Shown piece after piece: positions 30,129-62,143 of a stretch of DNA of 64,000 nucleotides (positions within the stretch are counted from its first letter, which is position 1; each line of letters starts with the position of its first letter). Under the pieces are notes generated by a model. That model was given only the letters and a program-made list of their open reading frames with translations, ran no database searches and was not told the origin of the DNA. Source of the stretch: Candidatus Hodarchaeota archaeon (GTDB lineage Archaea; Asgardarchaeota; Lokiarchaeia; Sigyniarchaeales; SOKP01); the NCBI GenBank assembly GCA_048886685.1, contig JBHLKM010000013.1:81755-145754 (forward strand), in the 5' to 3' direction. Both the position numbers and the translations under genes were made by a program.

Positions 30129-30158
30129 ATTTTATTTCACTTAGCTAATTATTTTTTA

Positions 30159-31082
30159 TTATATTTTACCATCTTTTATTAATTCTTTAGCATATTCATA
30201 ATCTTCTTCTGTATCCATCTCTACCCATTCTCTCTGAATATCAACTGAATGCATCGAATATCCTCGTAAAATAAGTTCTTCAATCATATCTGTTAAGTAT
30301 GCTTTTTGCATTGTCGTTGCATCGTGAAATCTTCCCTCAAATTTACAAGTTTTATTGTATTTCGCACGATTATAATTACGGATTAAGATTTCTGCACCTT
30401 TTTTTGTAAATTTACCAAGTCCTATGAATTCTCCATATGCAACATCTGGATTATAAAATTTTGATAGATTCTTTATTTTCCCGTGTTCTACAATAGCTAA
30501 TTCAGCTTCGTCTGTAGGATGTTTCATACGTCCTTCATATCTTTTCCTCCAGTCAGTATCTATGATAAAACTAAAATCATGAGGTGAATCCAATAGTTTT
30601 TTAACGACATTTTTACTGTACAAGATATCTGAATAGGTGAAAATAAATCCATCTTTCATTGCCTCCTCAGCATAAAACAAGGATTCGAGAATATTATTGT
30701 TATAATAATCATCATTATCATAGTATGTAATATTTGGTAAGTCAATTTTTTCTTTTTGATATCCTCGAATAATTACAAAATCATCAAGACCAAAATATTT
30801 AAAATTATCCAAAGTCCGTTCAAGAATGCTTTTTCCTTCAATTTCTAATAAACACTTTGGTTTATATTCAGTTAGAGGTCTTAATCTTGTACTTGGGCCA
30901 GCAGCTATAATAATTACTTTCATCTCTTTTACATCTATATTTTCCTCATATCTTCTTACAACGCGCTCTAGAAGCGAAATGTGCTCATTGAATTTTTCAG
31001 ATGTTTTTTTATATCCGACTTTTTTAACACTCTCATAAATCTTCTTAATTTCTTCAGGATCTGTATATTTTCGTGTCGGCAT
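30159..31082 (-). CDS. LicC/PntC-like cytidylyltransferase with ~50-aa N-terminal HTH-like extension
   Basis: IIAAGPSTRLRPLT..KPKCLL, YSDILY, GEFIGL, WVEMDT..DY. Confidence 0.85.
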   Translation of the reverse strand: MPTRKYTDPEEIKKIYESVKKVGYKKTSEKFNEHISLLERVVRRYEENIDVKEMKVIIIAAGPSTRLRPLTEYKPKCLLEIEGKSILERTLDNFKYFGLDDFVIIRGYQKEKIDLPNITYYDNDDYYNNNILESLFYAEEAMKDGFIFTYSDILYSKNVVKKLLDSPHDFSFIIDTDWRKRYEGRMKHPTDEAELAIVEHGKIKNLSKFYNPDVAYGEFIGLGKFTKKGAEILIRNYNRAKYNKTCKFEGRFHDATTMQKAYLTDMIEELILRGYSMHSVDIQREWVEMDTEEDYEYAKELIKDGKI

Positions 31083-31362
31083 ATTTTTTTATGAATAGTT
31101 TGATAACTTCAAAAGTACACTTACCTATATAAACTTTTACAATTTTGATCTTCAACAAAAACTTTTATTAGATAGAAATCTATGAAATCTTATATAGGTA
31201 AGCTAATTAAATTTTCACTTAATTATTAGGTATTCTGATTATTATTTGCCTAAACTCAATTATATCATCATTCTTATTCAACAATCTATTAAAACTCTTA
31301 GGAGCGTCAAAAGAAATTTGTTTTTAATTAAATCGGATCTTTAAGAGGAATTCAAGAATTAG

Positions 31363-32865
31363 TTATTTGTAAAATTTTCTAATATGCTTATTAAAATATA
31401 GAGGGAAATACAAAATCCAGACCAGAATTTCCTTCCATCTTTGCAATAGAAGTTTTCTTCGCTTGATTAAAGATCTGATTACAAATTTCAAATAACCTGT
31501 GTCTTTAATTTGATCTGATACATTATTTAATTCTGTATCTAATATTATGAATTTTTTCGTGTATTTTTGATATTTCCTTCGTAATTTTTTTAAACCATAA
31601 CCAGTCATTCTATTATAGATTAAGATCGTAATGAGACTGTAATTTTTAATGGAATTGAAAGTATTAACCTCAGATAATTTTATTATTTTATTTTTATTTT
31701 TTAGATTTTCTTTAAGAAATATTACTAATTGAGGAGGGAACTGGTTTGGAATTAGGATGTTCTCAGACTCTAGAGAAGCTAAGAAACTTTGATTATATAT
31801 ATCATTTAAAGTATTTTTTAATATTTCATAAGCTTTTTTTTCAGTTTTTAAATAGAATCGAAACATTTCATTAAAGATTTTTGGATTTGAATTCCTTAAA
31901 TCTAATTTTTCCAATGGGTCTTCACTTAAATTATATAAAGTAAATTTTCCATTAATATTCAGAAGTTTCCACTCATCTTTGGTGATCATCGTTTTTTTAA
32001 TCGTTTGAAACATTAAATAACAGTCTCCTCTTATTTTTCTTTCTTTATTAACATCGTTGTCTTCCTCAATTAATTCCTTGAAAGAAATTGATTCTCTTTC
32101 ATGACTTGCTTCGATATTTAAATAATCAAGAACAGTCTCCATAACATCTATTAAATAAACTTGCCTTTCAATTGTTTTTGGTTGTGTTTTTGTTAAATTT
32201 GGTGGAATTTTAATAAATAAAATTGGGCGCATTGAAGATTGGTGAATATCGTCGAAATGCATTATTTTTCTCTTTTTATATAAATTGTGATCATAATAAC
32301 CATGATCAGAACTAAAAATGAAAATAGAATTATCCCATAAACTTTTATCTTTAAAATAATCTATAGTTTTGTTTAAATATAAATCAGTATGAGGGTCACT
32401 TGCCCTGAAAAATAAAAGAAAGAAATTGTTTTCGCTAGGTATAAAATGTTCCATTTTTTGGATGAAAATTTGATATACTTCCTTCGCATCTAACCAACGA
32501 TCTCCCGGATATAAATTTTTAGTGTAATATGGATTGAGAATATTTTTAGTAATAATTACTTGTTCTCTTCCAAATATAATTGATTGGATATTGTAATTAG
32601 CTTTTTTCAAAGGAGAAATATTATTATCTTTAAAACTCGGAAGTTTATCAATAGAACGATAATAATCAGGAATTAAGTAATAAGGGAATCGCCCAGTTAA
32701 AAATGAAAGAAGAGATAAGTTAGTTGATGGGAATTGAGAAATTGCATTTTCAAAATAAAAGCCTTCCTTATTTTTTTTTAAACTATTGAAGACAGGAAGT
32801 AACCCATGTAAATCAGTTCTTTCATAATTGCAGATTCCATCAATTATAATCCAAAAAATATTCAT
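31363..32865 (-). CDS. Divergent sulfatase-like (alkaline phosphatase superfamily) protein
   Basis: NIFWIIID, FPSTNLS..SFLTG, SSDHG, YNLSEDPLE; no CxPxR. Confidence 0.8.
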   Translation of the reverse strand: MNIFWIIIDGICNYERTDLHGLLPVFNSLKKNKEGFYFENAISQFPSTNLSLLSFLTGRFPYYLIPDYYRSIDKLPSFKDNNISPLKKANYNIQSIIFGREQVIITKNILNPYYTKNLYPGDRWLDAKEVYQIFIQKMEHFIPSENNFFLLFFRASDPHTDLYLNKTIDYFKDKSLWDNSIFIFSSDHGYYDHNLYKKRKIMHFDDIHQSSMRPILFIKIPPNLTKTQPKTIERQVYLIDVMETVLDYLNIEASHERESISFKELIEEDNDVNKERKIRGDCYLMFQTIKKTMITKDEWKLLNINGKFTLYNLSEDPLEKLDLRNSNPKIFNEMFRFYLKTEKKAYEILKNTLNDIYNQSFLASLESENILIPNQFPPQLVIFLKENLKNKNKIIKLSEVNTFNSIKNYSLITILIYNRMTGYGLKKLRRKYQKYTKKFIILDTELNNVSDQIKDTGYLKFVIRSLIKRRKLLLQRWKEILVWILYFPLYFNKHIRKFYK

Positions 32866-33031
32866 TTAGATACCTTCATAATATTTACTTTGCGAGAATT
32901 ACTATTTTCATAAAGAAAATTTTTGAAAGGATAAAAACTTAATTCCTTTTTATTGAATAAGAGATTTAAAATAGCGAGGGAATATAAATTTAAAATCAAC
33001 AATTAATTAATTGCTTCAATTTTCAAACTTT

Positions 33032-34144
33032 TTATTGCTTTAGACATTTATCATAAATATTTAATACCGTTTGAGCACTTTCTTCCCAGGAATATAATTT
33101 AACGCGTTCCAATCCTTTTTTTATTAAAATATTTCGCAATTTATCATTTTCTAGTACTTCTATCATTTTATTTGCTAATTCAACGTGATCAGAATTGTTT
33201 TTTAGAATTAATGCCGCATCTCCTACTATTTCTGGAATAGCAAAGGCGTTTGAAGTAATAACTGGACAACCACAAGCCATGGCCTCTAAATTGGGCATAC
33301 CAAAACCCTCAAAAAAAGAAGGAAAAACAAACACTTCTGCCAAATTTAGAAGTCCAATAACATCTCTTCTAGGGATAAAACCAGGAAAAACAATATCATT
33401 AAGTAAATTTTGTTGTCTGGTAAATTCAATTACTTCTTTATTTTTCCATCCACTTCCTCCTAAAACTAATTTTATTGAATTTTCTTGTTTTTTTAGTATT
33501 TGAAATGCTTTTAGTAGTGTCCAGGGATTTTTTCTCATACTATACCTACTTAAATGAAAAATGAAAGGAGAATCTATGCCATATTTTTTTTTTAATTCTA
33601 TTGGTTTTTTATTATAAACCTTGAAATCATCATCTACGGCATTATATGTGAGATAGATTTTATCTTTATTTACTCGATAATAGTTTATAATCTGTCTTTT
33701 AGTAATTCGAGAAACAGTAAAAATATATTCCAATTTTCGCGCATAATAAGGTCTAATTGTTTTGGCATGCAACCTTTTAATAATATTATATTTACGGGCA
33801 AAATAAAGTTCATATGCACCACCGCCATGAATTGTAGCAATCTTCTTCGGTTTTTTTAACCAGACAGGAGATAATATAGTTAAAGGAGAAAAATGTAATA
33901 TATCAAATTTTTCTTTTCTGAGTTTAGAGGATGCGATAATTGGATTTTTAGATATGATCAATTCATCAGTTCTTTTATAAATCTCCTTATTATTCTTAGA
34001 ATGGTGTATTAGAATTATGTTAAATCTATCATTAATATCCAAGATACGATTTACTAGTTGCCTTAAATGACTACCACTTCCACTAGTTCCTTGATCTATT
34101 GGTTTAGTAAAAATACCAACTTTGGGTTTGTTATTTAACGGCAT
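33032..34144 (-). CDS. GT4 glycosyltransferase
   Basis: RKNP, FPSFFEGFGMPNLEAMACG. Confidence 0.93.
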   Translation of the reverse strand: MPLNNKPKVGIFTKPIDQGTSGSGSHLRQLVNRILDINDRFNIILIHHSKNNKEIYKRTDELIISKNPIIASSKLRKEKFDILHFSPLTILSPVWLKKPKKIATIHGGGAYELYFARKYNIIKRLHAKTIRPYYARKLEYIFTVSRITKRQIINYYRVNKDKIYLTYNAVDDDFKVYNKKPIELKKKYGIDSPFIFHLSRYSMRKNPWTLLKAFQILKKQENSIKLVLGGSGWKNKEVIEFTRQQNLLNDIVFPGFIPRRDVIGLLNLAEVFVFPSFFEGFGMPNLEAMACGCPVITSNAFAIPEIVGDAALILKNNSDHVELANKMIEVLENDKLRNILIKKGLERVKLYSWEESAQTVLNIYDKCLKQ

Positions 34145-34177
34145 ATATCTTCATTAATCTTAATTTGCTCACCAATT

Positions 34178-34990
34178 CTACTTAGATTGTTGAATGGCAA
34201 TGATATCTTTTGTAATACTTCTTGATTTGATAATAATAAATGATGAAAAAACAAGAGACATAAACACAAAATAACAAATCATGATGATTTCTAATATCTG
34301 AAAATGACCAGAATATATAAATATTATATTCCCAACAAAAAACACTGTCGTAATGAGATGAGTATGACTAAAAGCATTGATAAGATTAAATATAATTTTT
34401 TTTATCAGCTTGAAAAAACTTTTTGAGGATTTTTCTTGGTTAACTTCTTCTTTTTGATTAATTATCTCTTTTACCTCTTTCTTGGTAGAAGCTATAATAG
34501 CTATCTTTCGAACCGTTCTTATTCCTAATATAAATATTGTCGTAAGAAAACCAAATATTATGTATAGAAATTCTGAATTAATTCTATAAATATTAAATCC
34601 AAAAGAAGAGAAAAAGCATCCCAAAAAGATAAAATGGCACACTTGATCATAATACATCCCTTTTATTGACACCTGTTTTTTATATCTTGCTACTTCTCCA
34701 TCGATTTCATCACTAAGAAAGTATAGATATAGTAAAATAAAACCAACGATAATGAATAAGCTATTACCAAATCCTATAAATAATAACCCAAGTAAGCCAA
34801 TCATACAACCAAAAATAGTGACGAAATTTGCAGTAATAGGCGTTTTTACTAAAATCCATGTTATATATTTGGATATAAATGTAAATGGATAATGCCACCA
34901 ATCATTTCTTCTTTTTCTATCTTCCAGTTTTTTACCTTGAGTTATCTCTTTGAATTCTTTAAAGCTTTGAGATGTCATTTTAATCTTCAA
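34178..34990 (-). CDS. CDP-alcohol phosphotransferase family protein
   Basis: TANFVT, DEIDGEVAR-x8-G-x3-D; TM helices. Confidence 0.9.
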   Translation of the reverse strand: MKIKMTSQSFKEFKEITQGKKLEDRKRRNDWWHYPFTFISKYITWILVKTPITANFVTIFGCMIGLLGLLFIGFGNSLFIIVGFILLYLYFLSDEIDGEVARYKKQVSIKGMYYDQVCHFIFLGCFFSSFGFNIYRINSEFLYIIFGFLTTIFILGIRTVRKIAIIASTKKEVKEIINQKEEVNQEKSSKSFFKLIKKIIFNLINAFSHTHLITTVFFVGNIIFIYSGHFQILEIIMICYFVFMSLVFSSFIIIKSRSITKDIIAIQQSK

Positions 34991-40278: not shown

Positions 40279-41817
40279 ATGGAGAAGCCAAACATTATTT
40301 TAATAATTCTGGACACTTTTAGAGCAGATAAACTCTTAACTAACAATGAGGGTAGAGAATTAACCCCTTTTATTAAAACTTTAATGAAAAACTCATATTA
40401 TTTTGAAAATTGCATAGCTAATAGTCCATGGACAGTACCATCTCATATTAATATATTTACAGGACTGTATGCAACTCAAATGAAAAATTTGACTAAAAAG
40501 GTTGATACCCTTGGTAATAAAATTCCAGTTTTAACTGAAATTCTTAAAGATTGGGGATACCATACAATCTGTTTCACAGAAAATCCCCACATTAATAAAA
40601 AGGAGGGCTTTGCAAGAGGTTTTGAAATATTCATTGATAATTGGCAGAGTTTTTTAACACATCCCAAAAGATTCTGGGTGGATCGAATTGAAAAAATCCT
40701 TCCAATCTCAAAAATTGCATCTCGAGTTAGTACCTATATAAAGAAAAGAATAGAATCTTCGGACGTTATTCTATTTAAAATAAAAAAAATATTAAAAAAT
40801 TTAAAAAATCAATTATTTTGGAAAAAAATTCTTTCGAATAAAACAACAACTCTCGATCAATTAGAAAAAATAGGAGATATATTAAAAAAAAAAAATAATA
40901 CAAACCCATTTTATCTTTTTTTAAACATAATGGCGACGCATTATCCTTATGTTCCTACAAGACAAATTCTTAATAAGTTTAAAATTAGAAATAAGCAAAT
41001 AAAGACCATTAGGAATTTTCTTCTAACAAATCCTAAAGATCTTATAAATTTAACAGAATCTAAACCTTTATCGGAAAATAAAATTGATATAATTAAAAAA
41101 TTATACAATACAAGTGTATTTTACGCTGATCAAATAGTAAAAGAATTATTCTCAATTTTAGAAAATCTCGGTTTATTAGAAAACTCATATGTAGTTATTA
41201 CATCCGATCATGGAGAACATTTATGTGATGAATCAGATCATTTCTTATGTGATCATACAACATATTTCAGTCTATATGAATCTCTATTACGGGTACCCCT
41301 ACTTATATATCATAAAAATTATAAAAATAAAGTTATCAAGAATCAGGTACAATTGAAAGATCTTTATCATACTATTCTTTCATTTACAAATCATAACTCA
41401 ACTAATATTAAGTATTTTAAAAAAGAAAAATCACTATTATATCAAATTGAAACTAATTCTACTCCAAAATTTATTTTGGGGGAATATTTGAAACCAAAAA
41501 ATAAAGTATATAATTTAATTCATAGATATCGAAATATTATAAAAAAGAATCTAATCTCTAAGATAATAAATGATGTGTACTTTCTGAGAACTGAAAAATT
41601 AAAATTTATTGATTTTAATTCAATAAAGGAATTATATCAAATAGAAACTGATCCTCAAGAGCGATTTAATATTACAGGCAAAAATCTTAAAGTTCAAAAA
41701 GAGATAAAAAAGGCCTATGACTTAATTAAAGAAAAAATTAATAAGAAAGAAGATTTAATAGAATTGACTACAGAAAAAGAAAAAGATTTAATTAAGAGAA
41801 GTATTAAATTACTCTAA
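40279..41817 (+). CDS. Sulfatase-like (alkaline phosphatase superfamily) protein with Thr at the nucleophile position
   Basis: PNIILIILDTFRAD, SPWTVPSH...FTG, THYPY, TSDHGE, ELY....DPQE. Confidence 0.88.
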   Translation: MEKPNIILIILDTFRADKLLTNNEGRELTPFIKTLMKNSYYFENCIANSPWTVPSHINIFTGLYATQMKNLTKKVDTLGNKIPVLTEILKDWGYHTICFTENPHINKKEGFARGFEIFIDNWQSFLTHPKRFWVDRIEKILPISKIASRVSTYIKKRIESSDVILFKIKKILKNLKNQLFWKKILSNKTTTLDQLEKIGDILKKKNNTNPFYLFLNIMATHYPYVPTRQILNKFKIRNKQIKTIRNFLLTNPKDLINLTESKPLSENKIDIIKKLYNTSVFYADQIVKELFSILENLGLLENSYVVITSDHGEHLCDESDHFLCDHTTYFSLYESLLRVPLLIYHKNYKNKVIKNQVQLKDLYHTILSFTNHNSTNIKYFKKEKSLLYQIETNSTPKFILGEYLKPKNKVYNLIHRYRNIIKKNLISKIINDVYFLRTEKLKFIDFNSIKELYQIETDPQERFNITGKNLKVQKEIKKAYDLIKEKINKKEDLIELTTEKEKDLIKRSIKLL

Positions 41818-51729: not shown

Positions 51730-52743
51730 ATGATTGTTCGCTCTAAAGCACCATTCAGAGTAAGCTTCGGTGGTGGGGGTACTGATATGCCCCCATATTG
51801 CACAGAACATGGAGGATGTGTTATTAGTACAACAATAGATCGCCATATATATGTCTCTATTGAACCTAGGGATGATAAGAAAGTTTGGGTTTTTTCTATT
51901 AATAATAATAAAGAAATACTGTTTAATGTTGGAGATAAAGGTTATACAGAAGATTTTGAGATCTTTAAGGGCGTAATAAACGTTTTAAATATAAAGGACG
52001 GGTTTAATATTACAACTTATTCAGAATTACCTCCGGGATCAGGTATGGGAGGTTCCTCTTCATTATGTGTAGCACTTATAGGTGGATTTAATGAATACTT
52101 TAATTTTCAATTAAATAAACATGATATAGCATTAAAAGCTTACGAGATAGAACGAATTGAATTAAACCAAAAAGGAGGATACCAGGATCAGTTCGCTGCA
52201 GCTTATGGTGGATTCAATTTCATTGAATTCTTTGATGATATAAAAGTAACTCCTTTAAAAACAACAGAAGAAATGATAAATGAATTACAATATAATTTAA
52301 TCCTTTATTATGTTGGAGGATCCCACTTTTCTTCTGAGATTCAAATTGAGGTTTTAAAAGGTTACGAATTTAAAAAGAAATCTTATATGGAAGCAATGCA
52401 AGATCTAAAAAATGTTGCTTATTCAATGAAAGAGATTATAGAGTCTAAAGATATAACTCAACTAGATAAATTTGGTGAATTTTTGCATAAAGGTTGGCTA
52501 GCTAAAAAAAGCTTAAGTTCAAAAATTTCAAATCAAAATATTGAAAACTTTTATTTAACTTCAAGAAAATATGGCGTTTTAGGAGGTAAATTGCTAGGTG
52601 CAGGAGGTGGTGGCCATTTACTGCTATTCTCTAAGTCAGAAAAAAAATTTGATGTTATAAAAAAATTAGAAGAAATTGGGGGAAAAATAGTTAATTTTCA
52701 TTTTAATCCAAGGGGATTAGAAGTTTGGAAATTAAATAATTAA
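51730..52743 (+). CDS. hddA: D-glycero-alpha-D-manno-heptose-7-phosphate kinase (GHMP)
   Basis: APFRVSFGGGGTD, PPGSGMGGSS, GGYQDQ, GGKLLGAGGGG; next to gmhA/gmhB. Confidence 0.88.
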   Translation: MIVRSKAPFRVSFGGGGTDMPPYCTEHGGCVISTTIDRHIYVSIEPRDDKKVWVFSINNNKEILFNVGDKGYTEDFEIFKGVINVLNIKDGFNITTYSELPPGSGMGGSSSLCVALIGGFNEYFNFQLNKHDIALKAYEIERIELNQKGGYQDQFAAAYGGFNFIEFFDDIKVTPLKTTEEMINELQYNLILYYVGGSHFSSEIQIEVLKGYEFKKKSYMEAMQDLKNVAYSMKEIIESKDITQLDKFGEFLHKGWLAKKSLSSKISNQNIENFYLTSRKYGVLGGKLLGAGGGGHLLLFSKSEKKFDVIKKLEEIGGKIVNFHFNPRGLEVWKLNN

Positions 52744-52772
52744 TTAAGGTTTCTATTGCAATATAAAAAAGA

Positions 52773-53357
52773 ATGACAAGATTGATTATTATGGAAGATG
52801 AAATAATTTCAATATTGGACGATTGTATTAAAGTTAAGCAAGGAATTAAAGACTTAGTTCCCATTATTAGTAAAATATCTGAGGAAATTATCACAACATA
52901 TAGAAATAGGAAAAAAGTAATTCTATTTGGTAATGGGGGAAGCGCAGCAGATGCTCAACATATCGCAGCAGAATTTGTGGGAAAATTTTATAAAGATCGT
53001 GAATCACTTCCCTCGTTGGCACTTCATACCAATACATCTGTTCTCACTGCTACAGCAAACGATTTTGGATATGACATGGTCTTTGAACGACAGGTATCTT
53101 CATTTGTAGAGCAAGGTGACATTGCTATTGGACTTAGTACTTCAGGGAATTCCCCAAATGTAATTAAAGGTCTGGTAAAAGCTAAAGAGAAAGGTGCAAT
53201 TACTATTGGGTTTACTGGGCAAAAAGAAAATGAAATTGAAAAAATTGTAGATTATTGCCTAAAAATTCCCTCCATTGATACTCCTCGAATCCAAGAAGGT
53301 CATATTACAGTAGGGCATATCATCTGCTATTTAGTTGAAAAGGAATTATTTGGATAA
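52773..53357 (+). CDS. gmhA: Sedoheptulose-7-phosphate isomerase (start may be 52791)
   Basis: GNGGSAADAQH, TANDFG, STSGNS, RIQEGH. Confidence 0.95.
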   Translation: MTRLIIMEDEIISILDDCIKVKQGIKDLVPIISKISEEIITTYRNRKKVILFGNGGSAADAQHIAAEFVGKFYKDRESLPSLALHTNTSVLTATANDFGYDMVFERQVSSFVEQGDIAIGLSTSGNSPNVIKGLVKAKEKGAITIGFTGQKENEIEKIVDYCLKIPSIDTPRIQEGHITVGHIICYLVEKELFG

Positions 53358-53429
53358 AAAAGTTCTACAAGACAAGAGATATTGTTTCAACTAAGTGAAA
53401 TAAATTGTTATTATGTTAGGAGAACTTAG

Positions 53430-53978
53430 ATGAGTATAACTAATAAAAATCGTGCTATTTTTTTAGATAGAGATGGTGTTATTAATAGAGAAGTAAATTA
53501 TTTATCAGATCCCGATCTTTTTGAGTTTATTCCAGGATCAATAGAGGCTCTTAAAATTTTAAAACAGAAGGGCTTTCTTCTAATAGTTATAACAAACCAA
53601 GCTGGGATAGCTCGTGGTTATTTCTCAGAGGAGACTCTTAATCAAATACATGACAAAATGAATAGAATTTTATATGAAAATAATATTATTTTAGATGATC
53701 TTTTTTATTGCCCCCATCATCCAGATTTCACAGGAGCATGTAATTGCAGAAAACCTAATCCTGGTATGATGCTAAAAGCTAAAAAAAAATATAATATAGA
53801 CCTTCAAGCTTCATTTATGGTAGGAGATACCTTAATTGATATTGAAACAGGCAAATTAGCAAATTGTAAAACTATTTTAGTATTAACTGGTTATGGTACA
53901 AAGCAACGTAAAAAAATAGATTCAATTAAGCCAGATTTTATTTATGACAGTCTATTAGAATTTGCTAAAAATTTATAA
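53430..53978 (+). CDS. gmhB: Heptose-1,7-bisphosphate phosphatase
   Basis: FLDRDGVIN, TNQAGI, CPHHP...CNCRKP, VGD. Confidence 0.93.
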   Translation: MSITNKNRAIFLDRDGVINREVNYLSDPDLFEFIPGSIEALKILKQKGFLLIVITNQAGIARGYFSEETLNQIHDKMNRILYENNIILDDLFYCPHHPDFTGACNCRKPNPGMMLKAKKKYNIDLQASFMVGDTLIDIETGKLANCKTILVLTGYGTKQRKKIDSIKPDFIYDSLLEFAKNL

Positions 53979-54028
53979 TTTAAATGATTATTATAATCTA
54001 TTAACAAAAGTAAATTTGGGTAGAAAAT

Positions 54029-54685
54029 ATGAAGTTTTTTATAGATACAGCAAACCTAAAGCAGATTAAAGAGATGCAACAATTAGGTATAATTGATGGG
54101 GTAACAACTAACCCTACACTGCTCTCAAGGGAAGGAGTGGAACCTGTAGAACAGTTAAAAAAGATTTGTGAAATTGTTGATGGACCTGTAAGCGCGGAAG
54201 TTATTGGATTAAATACGGAGGAAATGGTGAAAGAAGCAAGGGAATTAGCAAAATTGGCTTCAAATATAGTGATAAAAATTCCGATGACTAAGGAAGGAAT
54301 TAAAGCAGTCAAAATTCTCGAAGCTGAAGGAATAAAGACAAACGTGACTCTTGTTTTTTCACAAAATCAAGTTCTTATAGCTGCTAAAGCAGGCGCATCC
54401 TACATAAGTCCGTTTATAGGAAGACTGATGGATAATGGTCAGAATGAAATAGATATGCTTTGGGAAACAATGGATATTATTAATGCATATGATTTCAAAT
54501 CAGAAATTATTGTTGCATCTATTAGAAATGCAAGACACGTTATTGAATCTGCAAAAATGGGAGCACATATAGCTACAATTCCATTCCCTGTACTTGAAAA
54601 GATGTTTATTCATCCAAATACTGAAAAAGGATTGGATGCATTCTTGAAAGATTGGGAGAAATTACAAAATCAATTAAAAAAGTAA
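54029..54685 (+). CDS. tal: Transaldolase (short Fsa/TalC family)
   Basis: [38 protein letters not shown]. Confidence 0.92.
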
Positions 54686-54701
54686 TAAACTACTCTTTCA
54701 C

Positions 54702-55694
54702 ATGTCTCTTATAGATAATATTAAGGATTGGAATCAAAAAAAAGTTTTAATCATTGGAGAAGCTTTAGTAGATAAATACATATTTGGTTTTGCTGATTCT
54801 ATCTCTCCTGATGCTCCAGTTCCAAATATTAAAATAGAAAATAGCTCGACATATATAGGAGCTATTGGCTTAGTTTTACAATTTATAAAATCTCTTGGGG
54901 GGATTCCTGAAGTTTGTACTCTAATAGGTAATGATTTTGAAGGGGATTTTTTCTTGAAGAATATTAAGAAGTTAAACATCGATTCTTCAAGTTTAATTGT
55001 AGAAGATGACATTAAAACACCTCAAATCACTCGTATAAAAGCAATGAACCAGCATTTATTGCGATTAGAAACGGACTATAATACTGAAATTTCCTCCAAT
55101 ATAACAAAAAGATTAATCGATGCGATTGGGAGTAAAGTCGAAGATGTTGCATCAATATTAATATTAGACTATGGAACAGGAGGGTTGTTTAAAGATCTCT
55201 TCATTCAGAATTTATTGAATAAATTGAGTGAAAATTCTAATAAAACTCCAATAATTGTACGTCCTACCAAGAATAATTATTATTTGTATGAAAAAGTTGA
55301 TTTCATCAAAATGAATCTTCAAAAAGCATTAGATACATTCTCAATTGATTGTTGCACTGAAACTAGTATCTTAATTGCAGGAAGAAGAATTTTAAACGCC
55401 TCTAAATGCAAGAATCTGTTATTAAACTATCTAGAGTTGGATTCATATCTATTTTTTAAGGAACAAGAGAAAATAGAAAAGTTTAAGCCTATATTACGAC
55501 AACCTGTTAGAAGTTATGTTGCAGTGGGGAGTGTTATAATGGCAGTATTAGGTTTAAGCTTAGCATCGAAAATTCCTGTAGTAGATGCCGTAAGAATTGC
55601 TCTATCCGCTGCTGCCTATACCGCTTCTTTACCTCCTGTTGATTTCTTTAGCTCAAAAAGGTTAAGTGATTATATTAAAACTATTACCAACTAA
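54702..55694 (+). CDS. RfaE/HldA-like PfkB-family heptose kinase homolog with degenerate active site
   Basis: LVDKYIFG...ISPDAPVP, QHLLRLE, ILDYGTG; GAGD replaced by AVGS. Confidence 0.75.
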   Translation: MSLIDNIKDWNQKKVLIIGEALVDKYIFGFADSISPDAPVPNIKIENSSTYIGAIGLVLQFIKSLGGIPEVCTLIGNDFEGDFFLKNIKKLNIDSSSLIVEDDIKTPQITRIKAMNQHLLRLETDYNTEISSNITKRLIDAIGSKVEDVASILILDYGTGGLFKDLFIQNLLNKLSENSNKTPIIVRPTKNNYYLYEKVDFIKMNLQKALDTFSIDCCTETSILIAGRRILNASKCKNLLLNYLELDSYLFFKEQEKIEKFKPILRQPVRSYVAVGSVIMAVLGLSLASKIPVVDAVRIALSAAAYTASLPPVDFFSSKRLSDYIKTITN

Positions 55695-55784
55695 TCAATC
55701 TATTATTCAATTTTAAATCAAATTCAAAATAATACTAATTAATTTTGATTTATTATTTATTTACAAATAAATACTTAATTACTC

Positions 55785-56768
55785 ATGAATTTTGAAGATA
55801 AAAAAATACTTGTTACTGGAGTTGCTGGTTTTATCGGAAGTAATCTCGCTTATAGATTATTAGAATTAGGAGCTCAGGTAACTGGAATTGATAATTTTTT
55901 TAATGGAAATTTTGATAGTATAGAAGATTTTTATAAAAACAAAGACTTTCGACTGGTTAAAGGGGATATAAGAGATTATGACCTACTCTTGGATCTTTTT
56001 AAAGATATAGATATAGTTTATCATGAAGCCGCATTTACTAGTGTCCCTTTATCAATATTAATGCCACAATCCTGCAATGATGTTAATATAAATGGAACTC
56101 TAAATGTCTTAAATGCTGCTAGGAAAAGAGACGTTGAAAAAATTATTCAGGCATCGAGCGCTTCTGTGTATGGAGACACACCGACCCTTCCTAAGAAGGA
56201 GAATATGCCAAGGATCCCAATTTCTCCTTATGGGGTTTCAAAATTAACATGTGAAGCATATATGCAAGCTTTTTATCATACTTATGGATTGAAAACAGTA
56301 TCATTACGATATTTTAATGTGTATGGTCCAAGGCAAGAGGATTCTCCTTATAGTGGAGTGATTGCGATTTGGCTTGGAAGAATTATTAAAAACAAAGATT
56401 TAATGATATTTGGTAATGGAGAACAGTCAAGAGATTTCATATATATCAAAGATGTAATTGAGGTAAATCTCCTAGCCGCAGAATATGATGTTCCTGGAGA
56501 GGTTTTCAATATCGGGGCAGGGTCTCCAATAAAACTTACTGATCTAGCAAAGTTAATGTTAAAATTGACAAAAAAAGAAGAATTAAAAATACTCTATTCA
56601 GATCCTAGAGCTGGAGACATCTTACATAGTTTTGCAGATATAACGAAAGTGAAAAATCTCTTAAAATTTCAACCTAAATACACCCCAGAACAAGGATTAC
56701 GAGACTATTTCAATTGGTATAGTAAAAAATTTAATATAAATTTATTAGTAGATGAAGGAAATTCGTAA
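55785..56768 (+). CDS. NAD-dependent nucleotide-sugar 4-epimerase (WbpP/GalE-like SDR)
   Basis: TGVAGFIGS, HEAA..SVP, YGVSK, RYFNVYGPRQ....YSGVI. Confidence 0.9.
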   Translation: MNFEDKKILVTGVAGFIGSNLAYRLLELGAQVTGIDNFFNGNFDSIEDFYKNKDFRLVKGDIRDYDLLLDLFKDIDIVYHEAAFTSVPLSILMPQSCNDVNINGTLNVLNAARKRDVEKIIQASSASVYGDTPTLPKKENMPRIPISPYGVSKLTCEAYMQAFYHTYGLKTVSLRYFNVYGPRQEDSPYSGVIAIWLGRIIKNKDLMIFGNGEQSRDFIYIKDVIEVNLLAAEYDVPGEVFNIGAGSPIKLTDLAKLMLKLTKKEELKILYSDPRAGDILHSFADITKVKNLLKFQPKYTPEQGLRDYFNWYSKKFNINLLVDEGNS

Positions 56769-56770
56769 AA

Positions 56771-57628
56771 ATGGGATTGTCTAAAGCAAATGAGAGAAAA
56801 CTCCAGATAGAAATTCTGCAAATAAAGAAAGATATTTTAAATATGATTTATCATGCTCAATCTGGTCATCCTGGTGGTTCACTATCATGTGCTAACTTAA
56901 TTTATTTGCTCTATAACAATGTTATGAGAATTAATCGCGAAAATTCTCAATGGGAAAATAGAGACATGTTTATATTAAGCAAGGGGCATGCGGCTCCCGC
57001 CTTATATGCTGTTTTATCCAAAATTGGGTTTATAGAAAGAAATACATTGCTTACTTTAAGGAAATTTGGCTCAAAACTACAAGGACATCCTGTAAAAAAT
57101 ACAGAGTATGGAATTGAAGTCTCATCAGGATCTTTAGGTATGGGATTATCTATTGGAATTGGATGCGCTTTAGCATCAAAATTAGATAAAAAAGAAAAAA
57201 GATATATATATGTACTGTTAGGTGATGGTGAATTAAATGAAGGTGCTATTTGGGAAGCAGCAATGGCTGCAAGTCATTTTAAATTAGATAATTTAATTGC
57301 CATTGTCGATAGAAATGGAATCCAAAATGATGGTTCAACAGAAGAAATAATGGCCTTAGAACCTTTGGTAGAGAAATGGAAAGCATTTGGATGGATGGTT
57401 TTTGAAGTTGACGGTTCGAATATAAGTGAAATTTTAGAGACTTTTAAAAAAGCTAAAAATATTGTTGGAAAACCCTCAGTGTTGATCTCCTATTTGATTA
57501 AAGGAGCTGATGTTTCTTTCATGGAACACACTAGAAAATTCCATGGCCGTGCTCCAAATAGTGAAGAATATAAAGCGGCTATTGAAGAAATTGAAAATAT
57601 TCAAAAAAATTTGGCAGGTGATCCATAA
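56771..57628 (+). CDS. Transketolase, N-terminal (TPP-binding) subunit
   Basis: SGHPGGSLS, LSKGHA, LQGHP, GSLGMG, GDGELNEG. Confidence 0.94.
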   Translation: MGLSKANERKLQIEILQIKKDILNMIYHAQSGHPGGSLSCANLIYLLYNNVMRINRENSQWENRDMFILSKGHAAPALYAVLSKIGFIERNTLLTLRKFGSKLQGHPVKNTEYGIEVSSGSLGMGLSIGIGCALASKLDKKEKRYIYVLLGDGELNEGAIWEAAMAASHFKLDNLIAIVDRNGIQNDGSTEEIMALEPLVEKWKAFGWMVFEVDGSNISEILETFKKAKNIVGKPSVLISYLIKGADVSFMEHTRKFHGRAPNSEEYKAAIEEIENIQKNLAGDP

Positions 57629-57632
57629 AAAC

Positions 57633-58562
57633 ATGTCTGAACCTATGCTCCGAGATACTTTTGGTGATTTTTTAGTACAATTTGGAAAGGATAATAAAAA
57701 TATAGTTGTTTTAGACTCAGATCTATCAATTTCAACTCGTACTTATAAATTTGGTAAGATTTTTCCTGACCGATTTTTTAATATGGGTGTTGCTGAACAG
57801 AATACGGTCGGAACAGCCATAGGATTAGCCATCTCCGGAAAAATTCCCGTTGTTAGTGGTTTTTCCATATTTATAACAGGAAGAGCTTGGGAATTTATAA
57901 GATTAGCTTGTCATGACAATTTAAATGTGAAATTTATTACCACCCATGGAGGTTTTGTAGGAGAAGATGGAAGTACTCACCATGCTTTAGAAGATTTAAG
58001 CCTGATGTCGTCACTTTCAAATATAAAAATTATGATACCATCAGATAACATAGAACTTATCAAAATCTTAGAATACTGTTTTAGTGTGGAGGGTCCTTTT
58101 TATATAAGGCTACCTAGAGGTTCTTTTCCTAAAATCCATACTGAAGATTATAAGTTTTCTTTGGGAGAACCAGATTTATTAAAAGAGGGTAAGGATATTT
58201 GTTTAATTGGAACGGGTTATGGTAGTATTTTAGCGCGAGAATCTGCAATAAAACTAGAAAAGGAATTGAATGTATCAATTAAAGTTTTAAATCTTCCATG
58301 TATTAAACCAATAGATAATCAAAAATTGATTAAAGAACTTGATAAAATTAAAGGAATTATAATTATTGAGGAACATAATATATATTGTGGATTTGGGAGC
58401 ATCTTAGCTAGAATTATCTCTAAAGCTTTTGCTAGACCTATGAGATTTATAGGCATTGAGAATTCTTTTGGACAATCAGGAGATAAAAAAGCCTTATTAA
58501 ATGCATACAACTTAAATAAAGAGAAAATTAAGGAATACATTAAAGAGTTATTAGATCTATAA
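57633..58562 (+). CDS. Transketolase, C-terminal subunit (true start ATG 57633, not 57510)
   Basis: RFFNMGVAEQN, GEDGSTHH, YIRLPR, EEH; GGTGAT RBS at 57617-57622. Confidence 0.93.
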   Translation: MSEPMLRDTFGDFLVQFGKDNKNIVVLDSDLSISTRTYKFGKIFPDRFFNMGVAEQNTVGTAIGLAISGKIPVVSGFSIFITGRAWEFIRLACHDNLNVKFITTHGGFVGEDGSTHHALEDLSLMSSLSNIKIMIPSDNIELIKILEYCFSVEGPFYIRLPRGSFPKIHTEDYKFSLGEPDLLKEGKDICLIGTGYGSILARESAIKLEKELNVSIKVLNLPCIKPIDNQKLIKELDKIKGIIIIEEHNIYCGFGSILARIISKAFARPMRFIGIENSFGQSGDKKALLNAYNLNKEKIKEYIKELLDL

Positions 58563-59087
58563 TAATAATCCTCTTTTTTCTAATTCATCAAGAACGATTT
58601 CTTTACTCTGTTTAACTGTTTGCTTATCAGTTTCAACTATTATATCTGGATTGTCAGGTTCTTCAAAAGGATGATTAACTCCTGTAAAGTCTTTTATTTC
58701 GCCATCTCTGGCTTTAGCATACATACCTTTAGTATCTCGGTTTTCACACTCCTCAAGTGAGCATTTTACATAAACTAAGATATAATCCCTAATTTCTTTA
58801 CGTGAGTATTCTCTAATTTTGTTATATGGTGATACAAATGAAGCTAAAACAGCAACTCCGTTACGAGTCAGCAACTTCGCAACAAAAGTTACTCTTTCTA
58901 TATTCATATTTCGATCTTCTTCAGAAAAACCTAAATCTCTTGTTAAACTCTTTCTCACTATATCTCCATCAAGACGCTCTACTTTCATACCGCGGTTTTT
59001 CAAATCTTCTGCTATAGCATCCGCTAGAACTGTTTTCCCAGAACATGGGAGTCCTGTAAACCATAATGTAAACCCTTTGTGTTCCAT
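58557..59087 (-). CDS. cysC: Adenylyl-sulfate kinase
   Basis: WFTGLPCSGKT, LDGDIVR, DLGFSEEDR, RDTKGMY, FTGV..PFE.P. Confidence 0.96.
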   Translation of the reverse strand: MEHKGFTLWFTGLPCSGKTVLADAIAEDLKNRGMKVERLDGDIVRKSLTRDLGFSEEDRNMNIERVTFVAKLLTRNGVAVLASFVSPYNKIREYSRKEIRDYILVYVKCSLEECENRDTKGMYAKARDGEIKDFTGVNHPFEEPDNPDIIVETDKQTVKQSKEIVLDELEKRGLLL

Positions 59088-59101
59088 TTTATTAACTTTT
59101 T

Positions 59102-60487
59102 CTAAAATTTAATAATTTCCCCTTCCATATCATCGGGAACATCAATTCCTAAAACTTTTAAAGAGGTGGGAGCAATATCTAGTATATTTTTTTTTCCGAG
59201 GTTCTTGCCAATTCTTTTTTTTGGATCATAAATAATAAAAATTCCATAATAATCATGCACAGCATCATCTGGCCCTGTATCATTTTCTTTCAAATACATT
59301 GTATCATAACCAACTGTCCCTGCTGATCTCCAGTTCAAATCATCAAAATACACCATTAAATCAGGAGGATCTCCACGAATTATTGGGAACAATTCTTCAG
59401 GTTTATATACCTTCGTTTCCATCGGCTTACCTTTATCATCTTCTATATTTTTGATTTTTTCTGCAATTTCTTTGCGTACCTTTTCATAATCTTCTTTTTT
59501 AATAATACCCAATGGCTCTCTTCCCTCAACATTTAAAAAGATCCGAGCATAATAACCCCCCCAACCCCAAGCATAGGTATTATTCCAATCAATCTCAGAA
59601 TTCCCAATCTTAGTCCCTGGTCTTGGTTTATTTTTGAATTTCAATAAACCTAAATTCTCGAGTGCCATATTAACACAAATTAAACCCTTCATAGCTTTAG
59701 CACCATGATCTGAAACGACCATAATAAGAGTATCATCATCACATAATTTTAGCACTTCCCCTACCTGCTTATCTAAAAATTTATAAAATTTCTTCATCTC
59801 AAACTCATATTTATTTCCAGGTTCATGTAGTTGGTGATCTACATCGTAATACTTCCAAAATGCATGATGAAATCTATCTAACCCAATAATCACAAACTGA
59901 AAATAATTCCAAGTTTTATTACTTATCAAATATTTTATTGTTTTAAATTGAACTTCAGTCATTTCATAAATTTCTTTTAACAGCTTTTCTTTTGATTCTA
60001 CTCTAAAATTAACATCTAAAATGTACTTACCAACATTCTCCTTTATCTCCTCTTTTAATTCAGGAGGATATGTATAGTTTGAAGTAGTATCAGGTGCTAT
60101 AAATCCAGCAACTAAGGATCCATTTATATGTTGAACAGGATAAGTTGGAGGTAAACCTACAATACAAGATTTAAGACCCTTCTCACCGATTATATCCCAA
60201 ATTTTCCTTTCTTTAATTGAATAAGAAGATGCTATCCAATAATCAGTGTAAGCATTTTTTTTCCGATGACGAAATCCATACAATCCTAATGTACCTGCTT
60301 TTTTTCCAGTAACCATAACCATCCATGCAGGAATCGTAATTGGGGGATCAGAACTTCTTAGTTTTCCATACACTCCATCATTCATTAACTTTTGAATGTT
60401 AGGACATTCCTCCAAAAAATCTTTGAAAAGCGTTTTTGGAGATGCGCAATCAAGACCAATAACTACTAACTTCTTATTTTGATTCAT
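59102..60487 (-). CDS. Alkaline phosphatase superfamily / nucleotide pyrophosphatase-like protein
   Basis: VIGLDCA, PPITIPAW...TG, DRFHH, VSDHG, H...GIF. Confidence 0.9.
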   Translation of the reverse strand: MNQNKKLVVIGLDCASPKTLFKDFLEECPNIQKLMNDGVYGKLRSSDPPITIPAWMVMVTGKKAGTLGLYGFRHRKKNAYTDYWIASSYSIKERKIWDIIGEKGLKSCIVGLPPTYPVQHINGSLVAGFIAPDTTSNYTYPPELKEEIKENVGKYILDVNFRVESKEKLLKEIYEMTEVQFKTIKYLISNKTWNYFQFVIIGLDRFHHAFWKYYDVDHQLHEPGNKYEFEMKKFYKFLDKQVGEVLKLCDDDTLIMVVSDHGAKAMKGLICVNMALENLGLLKFKNKPRPGTKIGNSEIDWNNTYAWGWGGYYARIFLNVEGREPLGIIKKEDYEKVRKEIAEKIKNIEDDKGKPMETKVYKPEELFPIIRGDPPDLMVYFDDLNWRSAGTVGYDTMYLKENDTGPDDAVHDYYGIFIIYDPKKRIGKNLGKKNILDIAPTSLKVLGIDVPDDMEGEIIKF

Positions 60488-60508
60488 AAGTATATAACCT
60501 TAAATAAT

Positions 60509-61678
60509 TCAACTTACAAAAGGATTAGAGTATTCTAAAATAACCTTAGCTACTTCGGGGCGCATTATATCTGGTCCAGGAAACTTTCCTTCTTTCAGTG
60601 CTTCTCTTATTTCTCTACCCGCAAAGAAATTTTGCATTTCAGGAGGGTGTGGACATATCTTATCATTGATTATAAAACCACATTTATTGCATTTTGAAAA
60701 TGATCTAAATTTTATGGGCTCAATTCCCAAATCCGGGAATTGGTCAAAAATCTCATGCGCATCATAGGGACCATAGTAATCACCTACACCTGCGTGATCC
60801 CTTCCTATTATAATGTGATCACATCCAAAATTTTTTCTTGTTATAGCATGAAAAATTGCTTCTTTGGGTCCTGCGTATCGCATCTCAGTTTCAAACGTAC
60901 TGAAAACAACTCGATCTTTTGGGAAATATTCTTCTATTAATTTACGGTAAGCTGTGATTATTACTTCATCTAAAAAATCCCCAACCTTTTTTTTTCCTAT
61001 CACAGGATTTATAAAAAGGCCATCCACATAAGTAAGACCTGCTTTTTGAACGTATTCATGTCCTAAATGAGGGGGATTTCTGGTTTGAAATGCTACAACT
61101 CTTTTCCATTTTTTTTCTTTAAATAAGACTCTTGTTTCTATTGGTTTTAGGTCTAATTCTGGAAACACAGCTTTAGGCTCATTAATTAGAAAAATTTCTC
61201 CCCCGACTAGCTTTTCTGCTTGATTGAACACTGCATTAACTCCAGGATGGTTAGGATCAATTGTATTGTATGTCTTTTCTGCAAATTCTTTTTTATCATA
61301 ATCATAAATATCTTCGACATTCATGAGTGCTATAGGATTTTCTATTGGATCTACTAGTATGACTCTATCATCAATATTAAATGTTTTTACTTTAGCTTTG
61401 GGAACATCTAATACAATAGGAAAGGGCCATGCTACGTTATTTTCAAGATACATATGTTCAAGTACATAATGATAATCGTTCTCATTCATAAATCCTTCTA
61501 ATGGACTAAAAACACCAAAACTAATGTTTTTAATTACTTTTATAATATTAGGTTGAACCTGAATCTTTTCAAATTCATCTAATTGACTTTCTATACGCTT
61601 TTTTTCAATCCTTGGTAAATCTTTATTTATTAAATTTCCCCCATGAGGTTGTATCATTTTTGAAACCTCTTTACTCAA
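60509..61678 (-). CDS. sat: Sulfate adenylyltransferase (ATP sulfurylase)
   Basis: PHGG, FSPLEGFM, QTRNPPHLGHE, MRYAGPKEA, GRDHAGVG. Confidence 0.96.
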   Translation of the reverse strand: MSKEVSKMIQPHGGNLINKDLPRIEKKRIESQLDEFEKIQVQPNIIKVIKNISFGVFSPLEGFMNENDYHYVLEHMYLENNVAWPFPIVLDVPKAKVKTFNIDDRVILVDPIENPIALMNVEDIYDYDKKEFAEKTYNTIDPNHPGVNAVFNQAEKLVGGEIFLINEPKAVFPELDLKPIETRVLFKEKKWKRVVAFQTRNPPHLGHEYVQKAGLTYVDGLFINPVIGKKKVGDFLDEVIITAYRKLIEEYFPKDRVVFSTFETEMRYAGPKEAIFHAITRKNFGCDHIIIGRDHAGVGDYYGPYDAHEIFDQFPDLGIEPIKFRSFSKCNKCGFIINDKICPHPPEMQNFFAGREIREALKEGKFPGPDIMRPEVAKVILEYSNPFVS

Positions 61679-61914
61679 TCTATATATCCTAAATCCCTTA
61701 AACGTTGTTTGACTTTTTCTTCTTCTTCCTTTGTAAAAGCTTGCTTTGAGCGCTCTTCTTCCTCAATAGATGATAATACTTGTCTTATTACGTAAGTAAC
61801 ATAGCTAGAGACACTTGCAAAACCAGTTCCCCTCATTCTCTCTTTTATTTTATCAGCTAATGGCTTTGGGATTGAGACTGTTGTATATTCAACTTTATGT
61901 TCATCATCAGGCAT
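61675..61914 (-). CDS. Ribbon-helix-helix (CopG-like) protein with C-terminal EEEEKVKQRLRDLGY tail
   Basis: TTVSIPKPL strand-helix, SVSSYV..VIR second helix; stop overlaps the sat start (TTGA). Confidence 0.88.
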   Translation of the reverse strand: MPDDEHKVEYTTVSIPKPLADKIKERMRGTGFASVSSYVTYVIRQVLSSIEEEERSKQAFTKEEEEKVKQRLRDLGYID

Positions 61915-62143
61915 AATTTTGATATCACACTATTTATAAAAACAATTATTAATAATTATTAATTAAAACATATTTAAATATTTAATTATATATAATTAAA
62001 TTTAATTATCCAAAATATTTAGATGCTAATTCTTAACCTTAATTTTACTTAACTCTCAAAAAAGGTTGCAAATTTAATAAATACCATGTTTAATTTAATG
62101 ATATTAGGATCAGTTTCAGCAAATTAAATCCTGCATGTGAAGA

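What the first reader, a model, noticed from the sequence alone, without database searches (positions are those of the whole stretch)
58557..61914. PAPS operon with a free-standing 'RLxxLGY' tail protein: candidate non-canonical sulfate-transfer relay
Seen: a tight minus-strand operon RHH-sat-AP superfamily-cysC (TTGA overlap, then gaps of 21 and 14 nt) inside a glycan region. No P-loop sulfotransferase and no APS/PAPS reductase is recognisable in the window. The 79-aa RHH ends in EEEEKVKQRLRDLGYID. Established: Sat + CysC make PAPS; an acidic-helix RLxxLGY tail is a common C-terminus of sulfatase/AP-family proteins; in the DltX/MBOAT pathway a terminal Tyr motif acts as a covalent shuttle. 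All three AP-fold proteins here lack the tail. Inference: the RHH supplies it in trans. The AP protein (Thr nucleophile, PPITIPAW) could move sulfate from PAPS to this Tyr, and sulfatase-like enzymes could pass it to glycans. Being on a DNA-binding domain, the tail could also link Tyr loading to autoregulation.
Basis: partly seen in the sequence, partly recalled or inferred. Interest (0 to 1): 0.9.

Follow-up and report, generated by a model that had tools for sequence, protein, structure and literature searches.

The report
Tyrosine-tail sulfate carrier relay
A short tyrosine-ending tail, here attached to a small gene regulator, travels with the enzymes that make activated sulfate in many archaea and bacteria and probably carries sulfate from them to sugar-modifying enzymes, a hand-over route not described before and not yet shown by experiment.

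Summary
The operon RHH-sat-AP1-cysC is real, in an Asgard (Promethearchaeota) genome where no P-loop sulfotransferase or PAPS reductase was found. One correction: Sat probably starts at ATG 61657, a 17-nt gap, not a TTGA overlap.

The core inference, that the tail is supplied in trans, is well supported. Tyr77 is invariant (133/133), while the other aromatic sites swap Phe and Tyr. AP1 co-occurs with RHH-tail in 53/54 Asgard genomes. In bacteria the same tail sits on RHH, on CysC or on AP1 itself (27/28 genomes). AP1 and a small P-loop sulfotransferase exclude each other almost completely, and both travel with the tail (38/40 against 3/40 controls). A complex model docks the tail in AP1's active-site cleft (0.84 against best control 0.03). 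The sulfatase-fold sulfotransferases Agl30 and Agl31 end in the same LxxLGY. A repeat unique in the genome lies upstream of RHH.

Best reading: AP1 sulfates the tail tyrosine, which then donates sulfate to AP-fold glycan enzymes. The loading step is strongly inferred, the hand-over to glycan less so, and no step is shown biochemically. Other scan notes proposed the same idea on other genomes.

The parts
61675..61914 (-). RHH protein (79 aa): ribbon-helix-helix core (about 10-48), long helix and C-terminal Tyr tail
   Evidence: 692 homologues; 2006 clusters at 50% identity reach E<=0.001
61678..61737 (-). Tyr tail, residues 60-79 (helix 62-75 then LGY); proposed sulfate carrier; Tyr77 codon 61684-61686
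   Evidence: Tyr in 133/133; 97% identity among Loki loci against 73-86% for the other proteins; docks on AP1
60509..61657 (-). Sat, ATP sulfurylase (382 aa from ATG 61657; makes APS)
59102..60487 (-). AP1, COG3379-like alkaline-phosphatase-superfamily enzyme; Thr51 nucleophile, metal ligands D13, D204, H208, D260, H261, H411; proposed tail-loading sulfotransferase
   Evidence: co-occurrence and exclusion
58557..59087 (-). CysC, APS kinase (makes PAPS); no appended tail here
61983..62008 (.). Three TAATTA boxes at 10-bp spacing upstream of RHH; candidate RHH operator
   Evidence: pair motif in 34/39 homologous upstream regions, 0.2 in shuffles, 5/1823 genome background; the triple occurs once in the genome
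40279..41817 (+). Sulfatase-like enzyme with Thr52 and no CxPxR motif, ending in a Tyr-less pseudo-tail; candidate glycan acceptor enzyme
   Evidence: link to the relay is inferred
31363..32865 (-). Divergent sulfatase-like enzyme (Thr48), no tail; may instead move a phospho-substituent
   Evidence: neighbours are an NTP transferase, a CDP-alcohol phosphotransferase and a GlpT-like transporter

Best explanation
Sat and CysC make APS and PAPS (established enzymes). AP1 binds the C-terminal tail of the RHH protein in its active-site cleft (modelled). Through its Thr51 and two metals it moves the sulfuryl group from PAPS, or possibly APS, onto the hydroxyl of Tyr77 (inferred). The Tyr-O-sulfate is an aryl-sulfate donor that sulfatase-fold enzymes lacking the formylglycine motif, such as 40279-41817, use to sulfate surface glycans (inferred, weakest step). 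The tail is a mobile carrier module: elsewhere it is fused to CysC, CysD, AP1 or the acceptor enzymes, and a small P-loop sulfotransferase does AP1's job. The RHH part represses its own operon at the upstream repeat (inferred), possibly sensing tail loading (speculative).
For: Tyr invariant and never Phe while the aromatics at positions 38, 41 and 60 swap freely. AP1: 54/54 with Sat and 53/54 with RHH-tail in 200 Asgard genomes, the exception being a contig edge. In a bacterial phylum 27/28 AP1 genomes have the tail, on RHH, on CysC (7 operons without RHH) or on AP1 in cis (3; these nest inside the AP1 clade). AP1 and the small P-loop sulfotransferase swap in the same slot (L043, L096, L184 against L118, L144, L183) and exclude each other: 0/53 against 8/13 among RHH-positive Asgard genomes; overlap 1 where 6.7 is expected in bacteria. 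The tail is in 38/40 genomes with the small sulfotransferase and 3/40 with neither enzyme. Complex model: score 0.84, best control 0.03; the mark was reached by 58 of 80 solved and 2 of 110 mismatched pairs; runs agree in at least 78% of contacts; partner pLDDT at least 69; the interface includes T51, F72, R205, D407 and tail 71-79. No like complex was found among solved structures. Agl30 and Agl31, AP-fold enzymes needed for glycan sulfation (PMC11980604), end in LxxLGY according to that paper's cloning primers.
Against: No biochemical data for any step. The model output lists no direct T51-Y77 pair among its best pairs. Genomes in the samples are related, so the counts overstate independence. 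The Thr-sulfatase-like clade is found in 8 of about 35 Asgard genomes where no RHH-tail was found, and in about 5/19 Sat-negative against 19/32 Sat-positive genomes of this family: enriched but not exclusive. 30/54 AP1 genomes also have larger P-loop sulfotransferases that could use PAPS directly. CysC was not found in 14/16 DPANN-like genomes with RHH-tail, so the donor is unsettled. AP1's nearest solved folds are NPP hydrolases, which attack phosphorus.
Confidence: 0.55

Rival explanations
1. Tyr sulfation happens but is a signal only: AP1 or the small P-loop enzyme marks the tail to report PAPS supply and switch RHH repression, while glycans are sulfated directly from PAPS by other enzymes.
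For: The tail is most often on an RHH that heads the operon (132/148 loci near a sulfate-activation gene); a conserved operator-like repeat exists; linkage to acceptor enzymes is loose.
Against: The tail also sits on CysC, CysD, AP1 and acceptor enzymes with no DNA-binding domain; Agl30/31 carry it; this genome has no other recognisable PAPS user.
Confidence: 0.17
2. The tail is a non-covalent subunit or plug: it completes or blocks the AP1 active site, and AP1 sulfates a glycan, lipid or small molecule directly.
For: Most top-ranked model contacts are between the tail helix and a conserved groove (interface conservation 0.64 against 0.48); cis fusions to AP1 look like a split subunit.
Against: The same tail accompanies a P-loop sulfotransferase of unrelated fold just as tightly, which suits a shared substrate better than a shared subunit; Phe is never tolerated.
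Confidence: 0.13
3. AP1 acts like an NPP: it attacks the phosphorus of APS, PAPS or PAP, either hydrolysing them or moving AMP onto Tyr77 as a regulatory mark.
For: Thr nucleophile and full two-metal ligand set; nearest folds ENPP1/ENPP3/Xac NPP; no DHH PAP phosphatase of the operon type found in this genome.
Against: Phe72 stands where NPPs have the conserved Asn (alignment; Asn role from own knowledge); a separate DHH phosphoesterase sits beside AP1 in several operons; interchange with a sulfotransferase points to sulfuryl transfer.
Confidence: 0.1

Closest known systems
Agl30 (VNG1056C) and Agl31 (VNG1057C), N-glycan sulfotransferases of Halobacterium salinarum (PMC11980604)
   Same: Alkaline-phosphatase-like fold, glycan-cluster location, needed for sulfation; both, and VNG1063H, end in LxxLGY according to the published primers.
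   Different: Their mechanism and donor were not determined and the tail was not discussed in the text I read; they carry it in cis. I could not obtain their sequences, so orthology to 40279-41817 was not tested. AP1 is a separate operon-embedded clade.
DltB-DltX-DltD and PatA-PatB tyrosine acyl shuttles (PMC12148441)
   Same: An invariant Tyr in a short C-terminal motif, either on a separate small protein or fused to an enzyme, carries a group between two enzymes to a surface polymer.
   Different: They move acyl groups across a membrane with MBOAT and SGNH folds and an FXYXXF motif. Here the group would be sulfate, the enzymes AP-fold or P-loop, the proteins soluble, and the motif unrelated.
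Cpz8/Cpz4 two-step sulfation in caprazamycin synthesis (as summarised in PMC6731281)
   Same: PAPS-dependent loading of a shuttle, then PAPS-independent transfer to a sugar.
   Different: The shuttle is a small pyrone; the second enzyme is an arylsulfate sulfotransferase (fold from own knowledge: not AP superfamily).
Nucleotide pyrophosphatases/phosphodiesterases (ENPP1, ENPP3, Xac NPP)
   Same: Fold (Foldseek E about 1e-17, TM about 0.55), Thr nucleophile, two-metal ligand set.
   Different: 13-16% identity; Asn replaced by Phe72; obligatory peptide partner; operon link and fusion with Sat (atlas cluster of 61 members).
NikR/Arc/CopG ribbon-helix-helix regulators
   Same: Core fold (rmsd 1.0-1.4 A over about 42 residues) and a repeat upstream of its own gene.
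   Different: No ligand-binding domain; instead a mobile Tyr tail shared with enzymes.

Membership tests
NPP clade of the AP superfamily | AP-superfamily fold with two-metal ligand set | tested here: met
   pLDDT 95.5 model, nearest folds ENPP1/3; D13, D204, H208, D260, H261, H411 conserved
NPP clade of the AP superfamily | Thr nucleophile | tested here: met
   T51 invariant in 71 sequences and aligned to the Xac NPP Thr
NPP clade of the AP superfamily | Conserved Asn 21 residues after the nucleophile | tested here: not met
   Phe72, Phe or Tyr in orthologues
NPP clade of the AP superfamily | Hydrolysis of nucleotide phosphodiesters | not testable with these tools
   needs assay
Formylglycine-dependent sulfatases | [CS]xPxR motif | tested here: not met
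   AP1, 40279-41817 and 31363-32865 all have Thr and no such motif; many other sulfatases in the genome do have it
P-loop PAPS-dependent sulfotransferases | PF00685/PF13469 domain | tested here: not met
   none in AP1 or in the genome
Agl30/Agl31-type AP-fold sulfotransferases | Sulfatase-like AP core in a glycan cluster | tested here: met
   40279-41817 PF00884 E 1e-40 among glycosyltransferase and flippase genes
Agl30/Agl31-type AP-fold sulfotransferases | Orthology to Agl30/31 and need for glycan sulfation | not testable with these tools
   sequences not obtainable here; needs genetics
MBOAT-linked Tyr acyl shuttles (DltX, PatA) | MBOAT and SGNH partners and FXYXXF motif | tested here: not met
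   motif is LxxLGY; operon partners are Sat, AP1, CysC
MBOAT-linked Tyr acyl shuttles (DltX, PatA) | Invariant C-terminal Tyr found both free-standing and fused | tested here: met
   (works-like feature only)
MBOAT-linked Tyr acyl shuttles (DltX, PatA) | Covalent Tyr intermediate | not testable with these tools
   needs MS or labelling
RHH transcription factors | Strand-helix-helix fold | tested here: met
RHH transcription factors | Sequence-specific binding to its operator | tested here: inconclusive
   conserved repeat found; binding untested

The most novel reading that the evidence does not exclude
A widespread archaeal and bacterial sulfation route uses a protein tyrosine as a mobile covalent sulfate carrier. 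Either of two unrelated loaders (an AP-fold enzyme or a small P-loop enzyme) charges it, formylglycine-free sulfatase-fold enzymes discharge it onto glycans, and one carrier form is also the operon's repressor. This would give the missing mechanism of Agl30/31 and reassign a large set of 'sulfatase-like' and COG3379 genes as sulfotransferases.
Probability: 0.5. Interest if true: 0.95.

Novelty: categorically new. Interest (0 to 1): 0.85.

Why it matters
Many archaea and bacteria make PAPS inside glycan clusters yet have no recognisable sulfotransferase, and the only shown AP-fold sulfotransferases (Agl30, Agl31) have no known mechanism or donor. This reading supplies both and is testable with a 20-residue peptide, one soluble enzyme and PAPS, or with single Tyr-to-Phe changes in a genetically tractable haloarchaeon. 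It would be a protein-borne sulfate carrier, of which I found no description in the literature searches, and would extend the tyrosine-shuttle logic of cell-envelope acylation to sulfation with unrelated folds. 'Categorically new' refers to that system and depends on the covalent step; if rival 2 or 3 holds it falls to a new variant of a known kind.

Tried and rejected
Strict complementarity (RHH only where all enzymes lack tails): rejected; tailed and pseudo-tailed enzymes both occur beside RHH-tail, and some operons have two tails. General exclusion of AP1 and all P-loop sulfotransferases: only partial (30/54 have both); the clean exclusion is with the small, about 190-aa family. Tail as proteasome HbYX signal: rejected, the Tyr is third from the end in 89/133. 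Tail as mere helix cap like the LxxxGY end of ordinary CysC or P-loop enzymes: rejected for the appended module, which follows the normal CysC helix as a second copy. Pfam has no family for the RHH. phmmer of AP1 against solved structures gave nothing. Related-locus search with the diverse alignment failed for lack of conserved stretches, so viral contigs were not scanned. No RNA holder was listed. Literature searches for this tail, operon or mechanism found nothing beyond Agl30/31. Only one complex job was available, so docking on 40279-41817 was not modelled.
Full report
VERDICT. The operon and the tail are real. Comparative evidence strongly ties the tail to AP1 and to sulfate transfer. The covalent carrier mechanism is the best reading (0.55) but is not shown.

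OBSERVATION. The four minus-strand genes are at the stated coordinates. Sat and CysC pass curated cut-offs; AP1 matches PF01663. Close homologues are annotated as Promethearchaeota. Sat most likely starts at ATG 61657 like its 382-aa homologues, so the TTGA overlap is probably an artefact. In the whole genome (100% complete, 8.4% contamination) I found no PF13469, PF00685 or PF01507, no AprA over cut-off, and no CysD or small sulfotransferase. The RHH is the only ORF ending in LxxLGY. The model shows an RHH core and a separate tail helix.

THE TYROSINE. Among 150 representatives clustered at 50% identity, all 133 with LxxLG at the end have Tyr next. In the same alignment Tyr38, Tyr41 and Phe60 exchange Phe and Tyr. 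Across 38 Loki loci the tail is 97% identical to the window's, against 86% for the RHH core, 83% CysC, 76% Sat and 73% AP1. This points to a chemical role for the hydroxyl (inference).

CONTEXT. RHH-tail usually heads a sulfate-activation operon, whichever of the two unrelated ATP sulfurylases is used (Sat or CysD/CysN): 132 of 148 loci have such a gene within 3 kb (a redundant, Loki-biased set). In 200 Asgard genomes all 54 with AP1 have Sat and 53 have RHH-tail. Haloarchaeal plasmids show RHH-tail beside tail-less sulfatase-like genes in glycan clusters.

THE TAIL IS A MOBILE MODULE. In 28 AP1 loci from one bacterial phylum the tail is on an adjacent RHH, appended to CysC after its normal last helix in seven operons without RHH, or fused to AP1 in three (one cut by a contig end just before the Tyr). 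One more genome has RHH-tail elsewhere; one has none. The cis-tailed proteins nest inside the well-supported AP1 clade (tails trimmed before building). The tail also ends CysD, CysC-RHH fusions and many acceptor-type AP-fold enzymes. So the tail does not need a DNA-binding host, and AP1 almost never lacks it.

AP1 STANDS IN FOR A SULFOTRANSFERASE. A roughly 190-aa P-loop sulfotransferase (PF00685 over cut-off) fills AP1's slot in otherwise identical operons, with or without a DHH phosphoesterase alongside. In Asgard genomes it is in 8/13 RHH-positive genomes without AP1 and 0/53 with AP1. In the bacterial phylum 48 genomes have it, 28 have AP1 and one has both. The tail profile matches 38/40 genomes with the small enzyme and 3/40 with neither. 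Relatedness inflates these counts, but the pattern repeats in two distant phyla. Two unrelated enzymes that exclude each other and share one peptide are best read as alternative loaders of one substrate (inference).

STRUCTURE. AP1 folds confidently (pLDDT 95.5), nearest to ENPP1/3 and Xac NPP at 13-16% identity, with Phe72 in place of the NPP Asn. The complex of AP1, two Zn and RHH 46-79 scored 0.84 against a best control of 0.03. That mark was reached by 58 of 80 solved complexes and 2 of 110 mismatched pairs; the counts hold only roughly here. Runs agree in at least 78% of contacts; partner pLDDT is at least 69. The interface includes T51, F72, R205 and D407, with F72-Y77 among the best pairs; a direct T51-Y77 pair is not listed. 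Interface residues are more conserved than the rest (0.64 against 0.48). No like complex turned up among solved structures. This supports binding but does not show it.

THE ACCEPTOR ARM. Agl30 and Agl31 are AP-fold proteins needed for N-glycan sulfation in Hbt. salinarum, mechanism unknown (PMC11980604). The paper's cloning primers translate to C-termini ending LxxLGY. Related enzymes with an invariant Thr mostly end either in the Tyr tail or in a helix of the same register without the Tyr. The window's 40279-41817 is of the second kind, as are most Asgard members; none of those examined had the Tyr. However, such enzymes also occur in eight genomes where no RHH-tail was found, which may reflect assembly gaps or a different job. 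31363-32865 lies among phospho-substituent genes. This arm is the least secure.

REGULATION. Upstream regions of 34/39 Loki RHH genes carry a hexamer pair with strictly 4-nt spacing (0.2 expected by shuffling, 5/1823 in the genome background). The triple copy at 61983-62008 is unique in the genome. Autoregulation is likely; coupling to tail loading is speculation.

MECHANISM AND STATUS. Established: Sat and CysC chemistry. Shown here: conservation, mobility, co-occurrence, exclusion. Modelled: tail binding in the AP1 cleft. Inferred: Tyr sulfation by AP1 (about 0.7), then hand-over to glycan enzymes (about 0.55 overall). The donor is open, because 14/16 DPANN-like genomes with the tail showed no CysC (small, possibly incomplete genomes).

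COMPARISON. It would work like the DltX/PatA Tyr shuttles (PMC12148441) and the Cpz8/Cpz4 two-step sulfation (PMC6731281), but shares no family-defining parts with either. It fails membership of formylglycine sulfatases and P-loop sulfotransferases, and one tested feature of NPPs.

EARLIER SCAN NOTES. Several first readers proposed the same tail idea on other genomes, and two follow-ups favoured AP1 as a new sulfotransferase. These are not independent support; the tests above are my own.

Noticed in passing
L039, L098, L105, L115, L254, L259, L262 (RHH-cysD-cysN operons): CysD carries its own Tyr tail, a short 230-260-aa AP-fold protein often sits in the operon, and CysC was not found in 14/16 such DPANN-like genomes: possible use of APS as donor.
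   Followed up: partly
L094:7803-8390, L236:9152-9754; PDB 7yq0: The tail resembles the normal last helix of CysC and in tailed CysC follows it as a second copy, so it may have arisen by duplication of that helix.
   Followed up: partly
window 40279-41817; L029, L031, L253, L257, L259, L260, L267: Many acceptor-type AP-fold enzymes end in a Tyr-less pseudo-tail, often with Phe, Leu or Ile at the Tyr position; possibly a placeholder for the docking groove.
   Followed up: partly
window 28815-34990: GlpT-like transporter, NTP transferase, CDP-alcohol phosphotransferase and a divergent AP-fold gene cluster: possible phospho-polyol decoration of glycan or lipid.
   Followed up: no
window 51730-58562: Heptose pathway (HddA-like kinase, GmhA, GmhB, HldE-like) with transaldolase, epimerase and a split transketolase whose last gene overlaps the end of cysC by 6 nt.
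   Followed up: no
G000 contig C10, about 1-37 kb: Cluster of more than ten sulfatase genes, most with the CxPxR motif, apparently degradative and separate from this system.
   Followed up: no
L089, L093, L255: 770-910-aa fusions containing Sat (and CysC in some) behind an N-terminal region that reads like pyruvate kinase (by eye, untested), directly after RHH and AP1.
   Followed up: no
L321:2033-2227, L322:1307-1477: Two Asgard RHH genes beside the small sulfotransferase have lost the tail: exceptions to the pattern.
   Followed up: no
P0243, P0245, P0249-P0255, L042:9815-10195: Longer two-RHH fusion proteins that still end in the Tyr tail.
   Followed up: no
window 11111-17479: 2122-aa ORF, not examined.
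   Followed up: no
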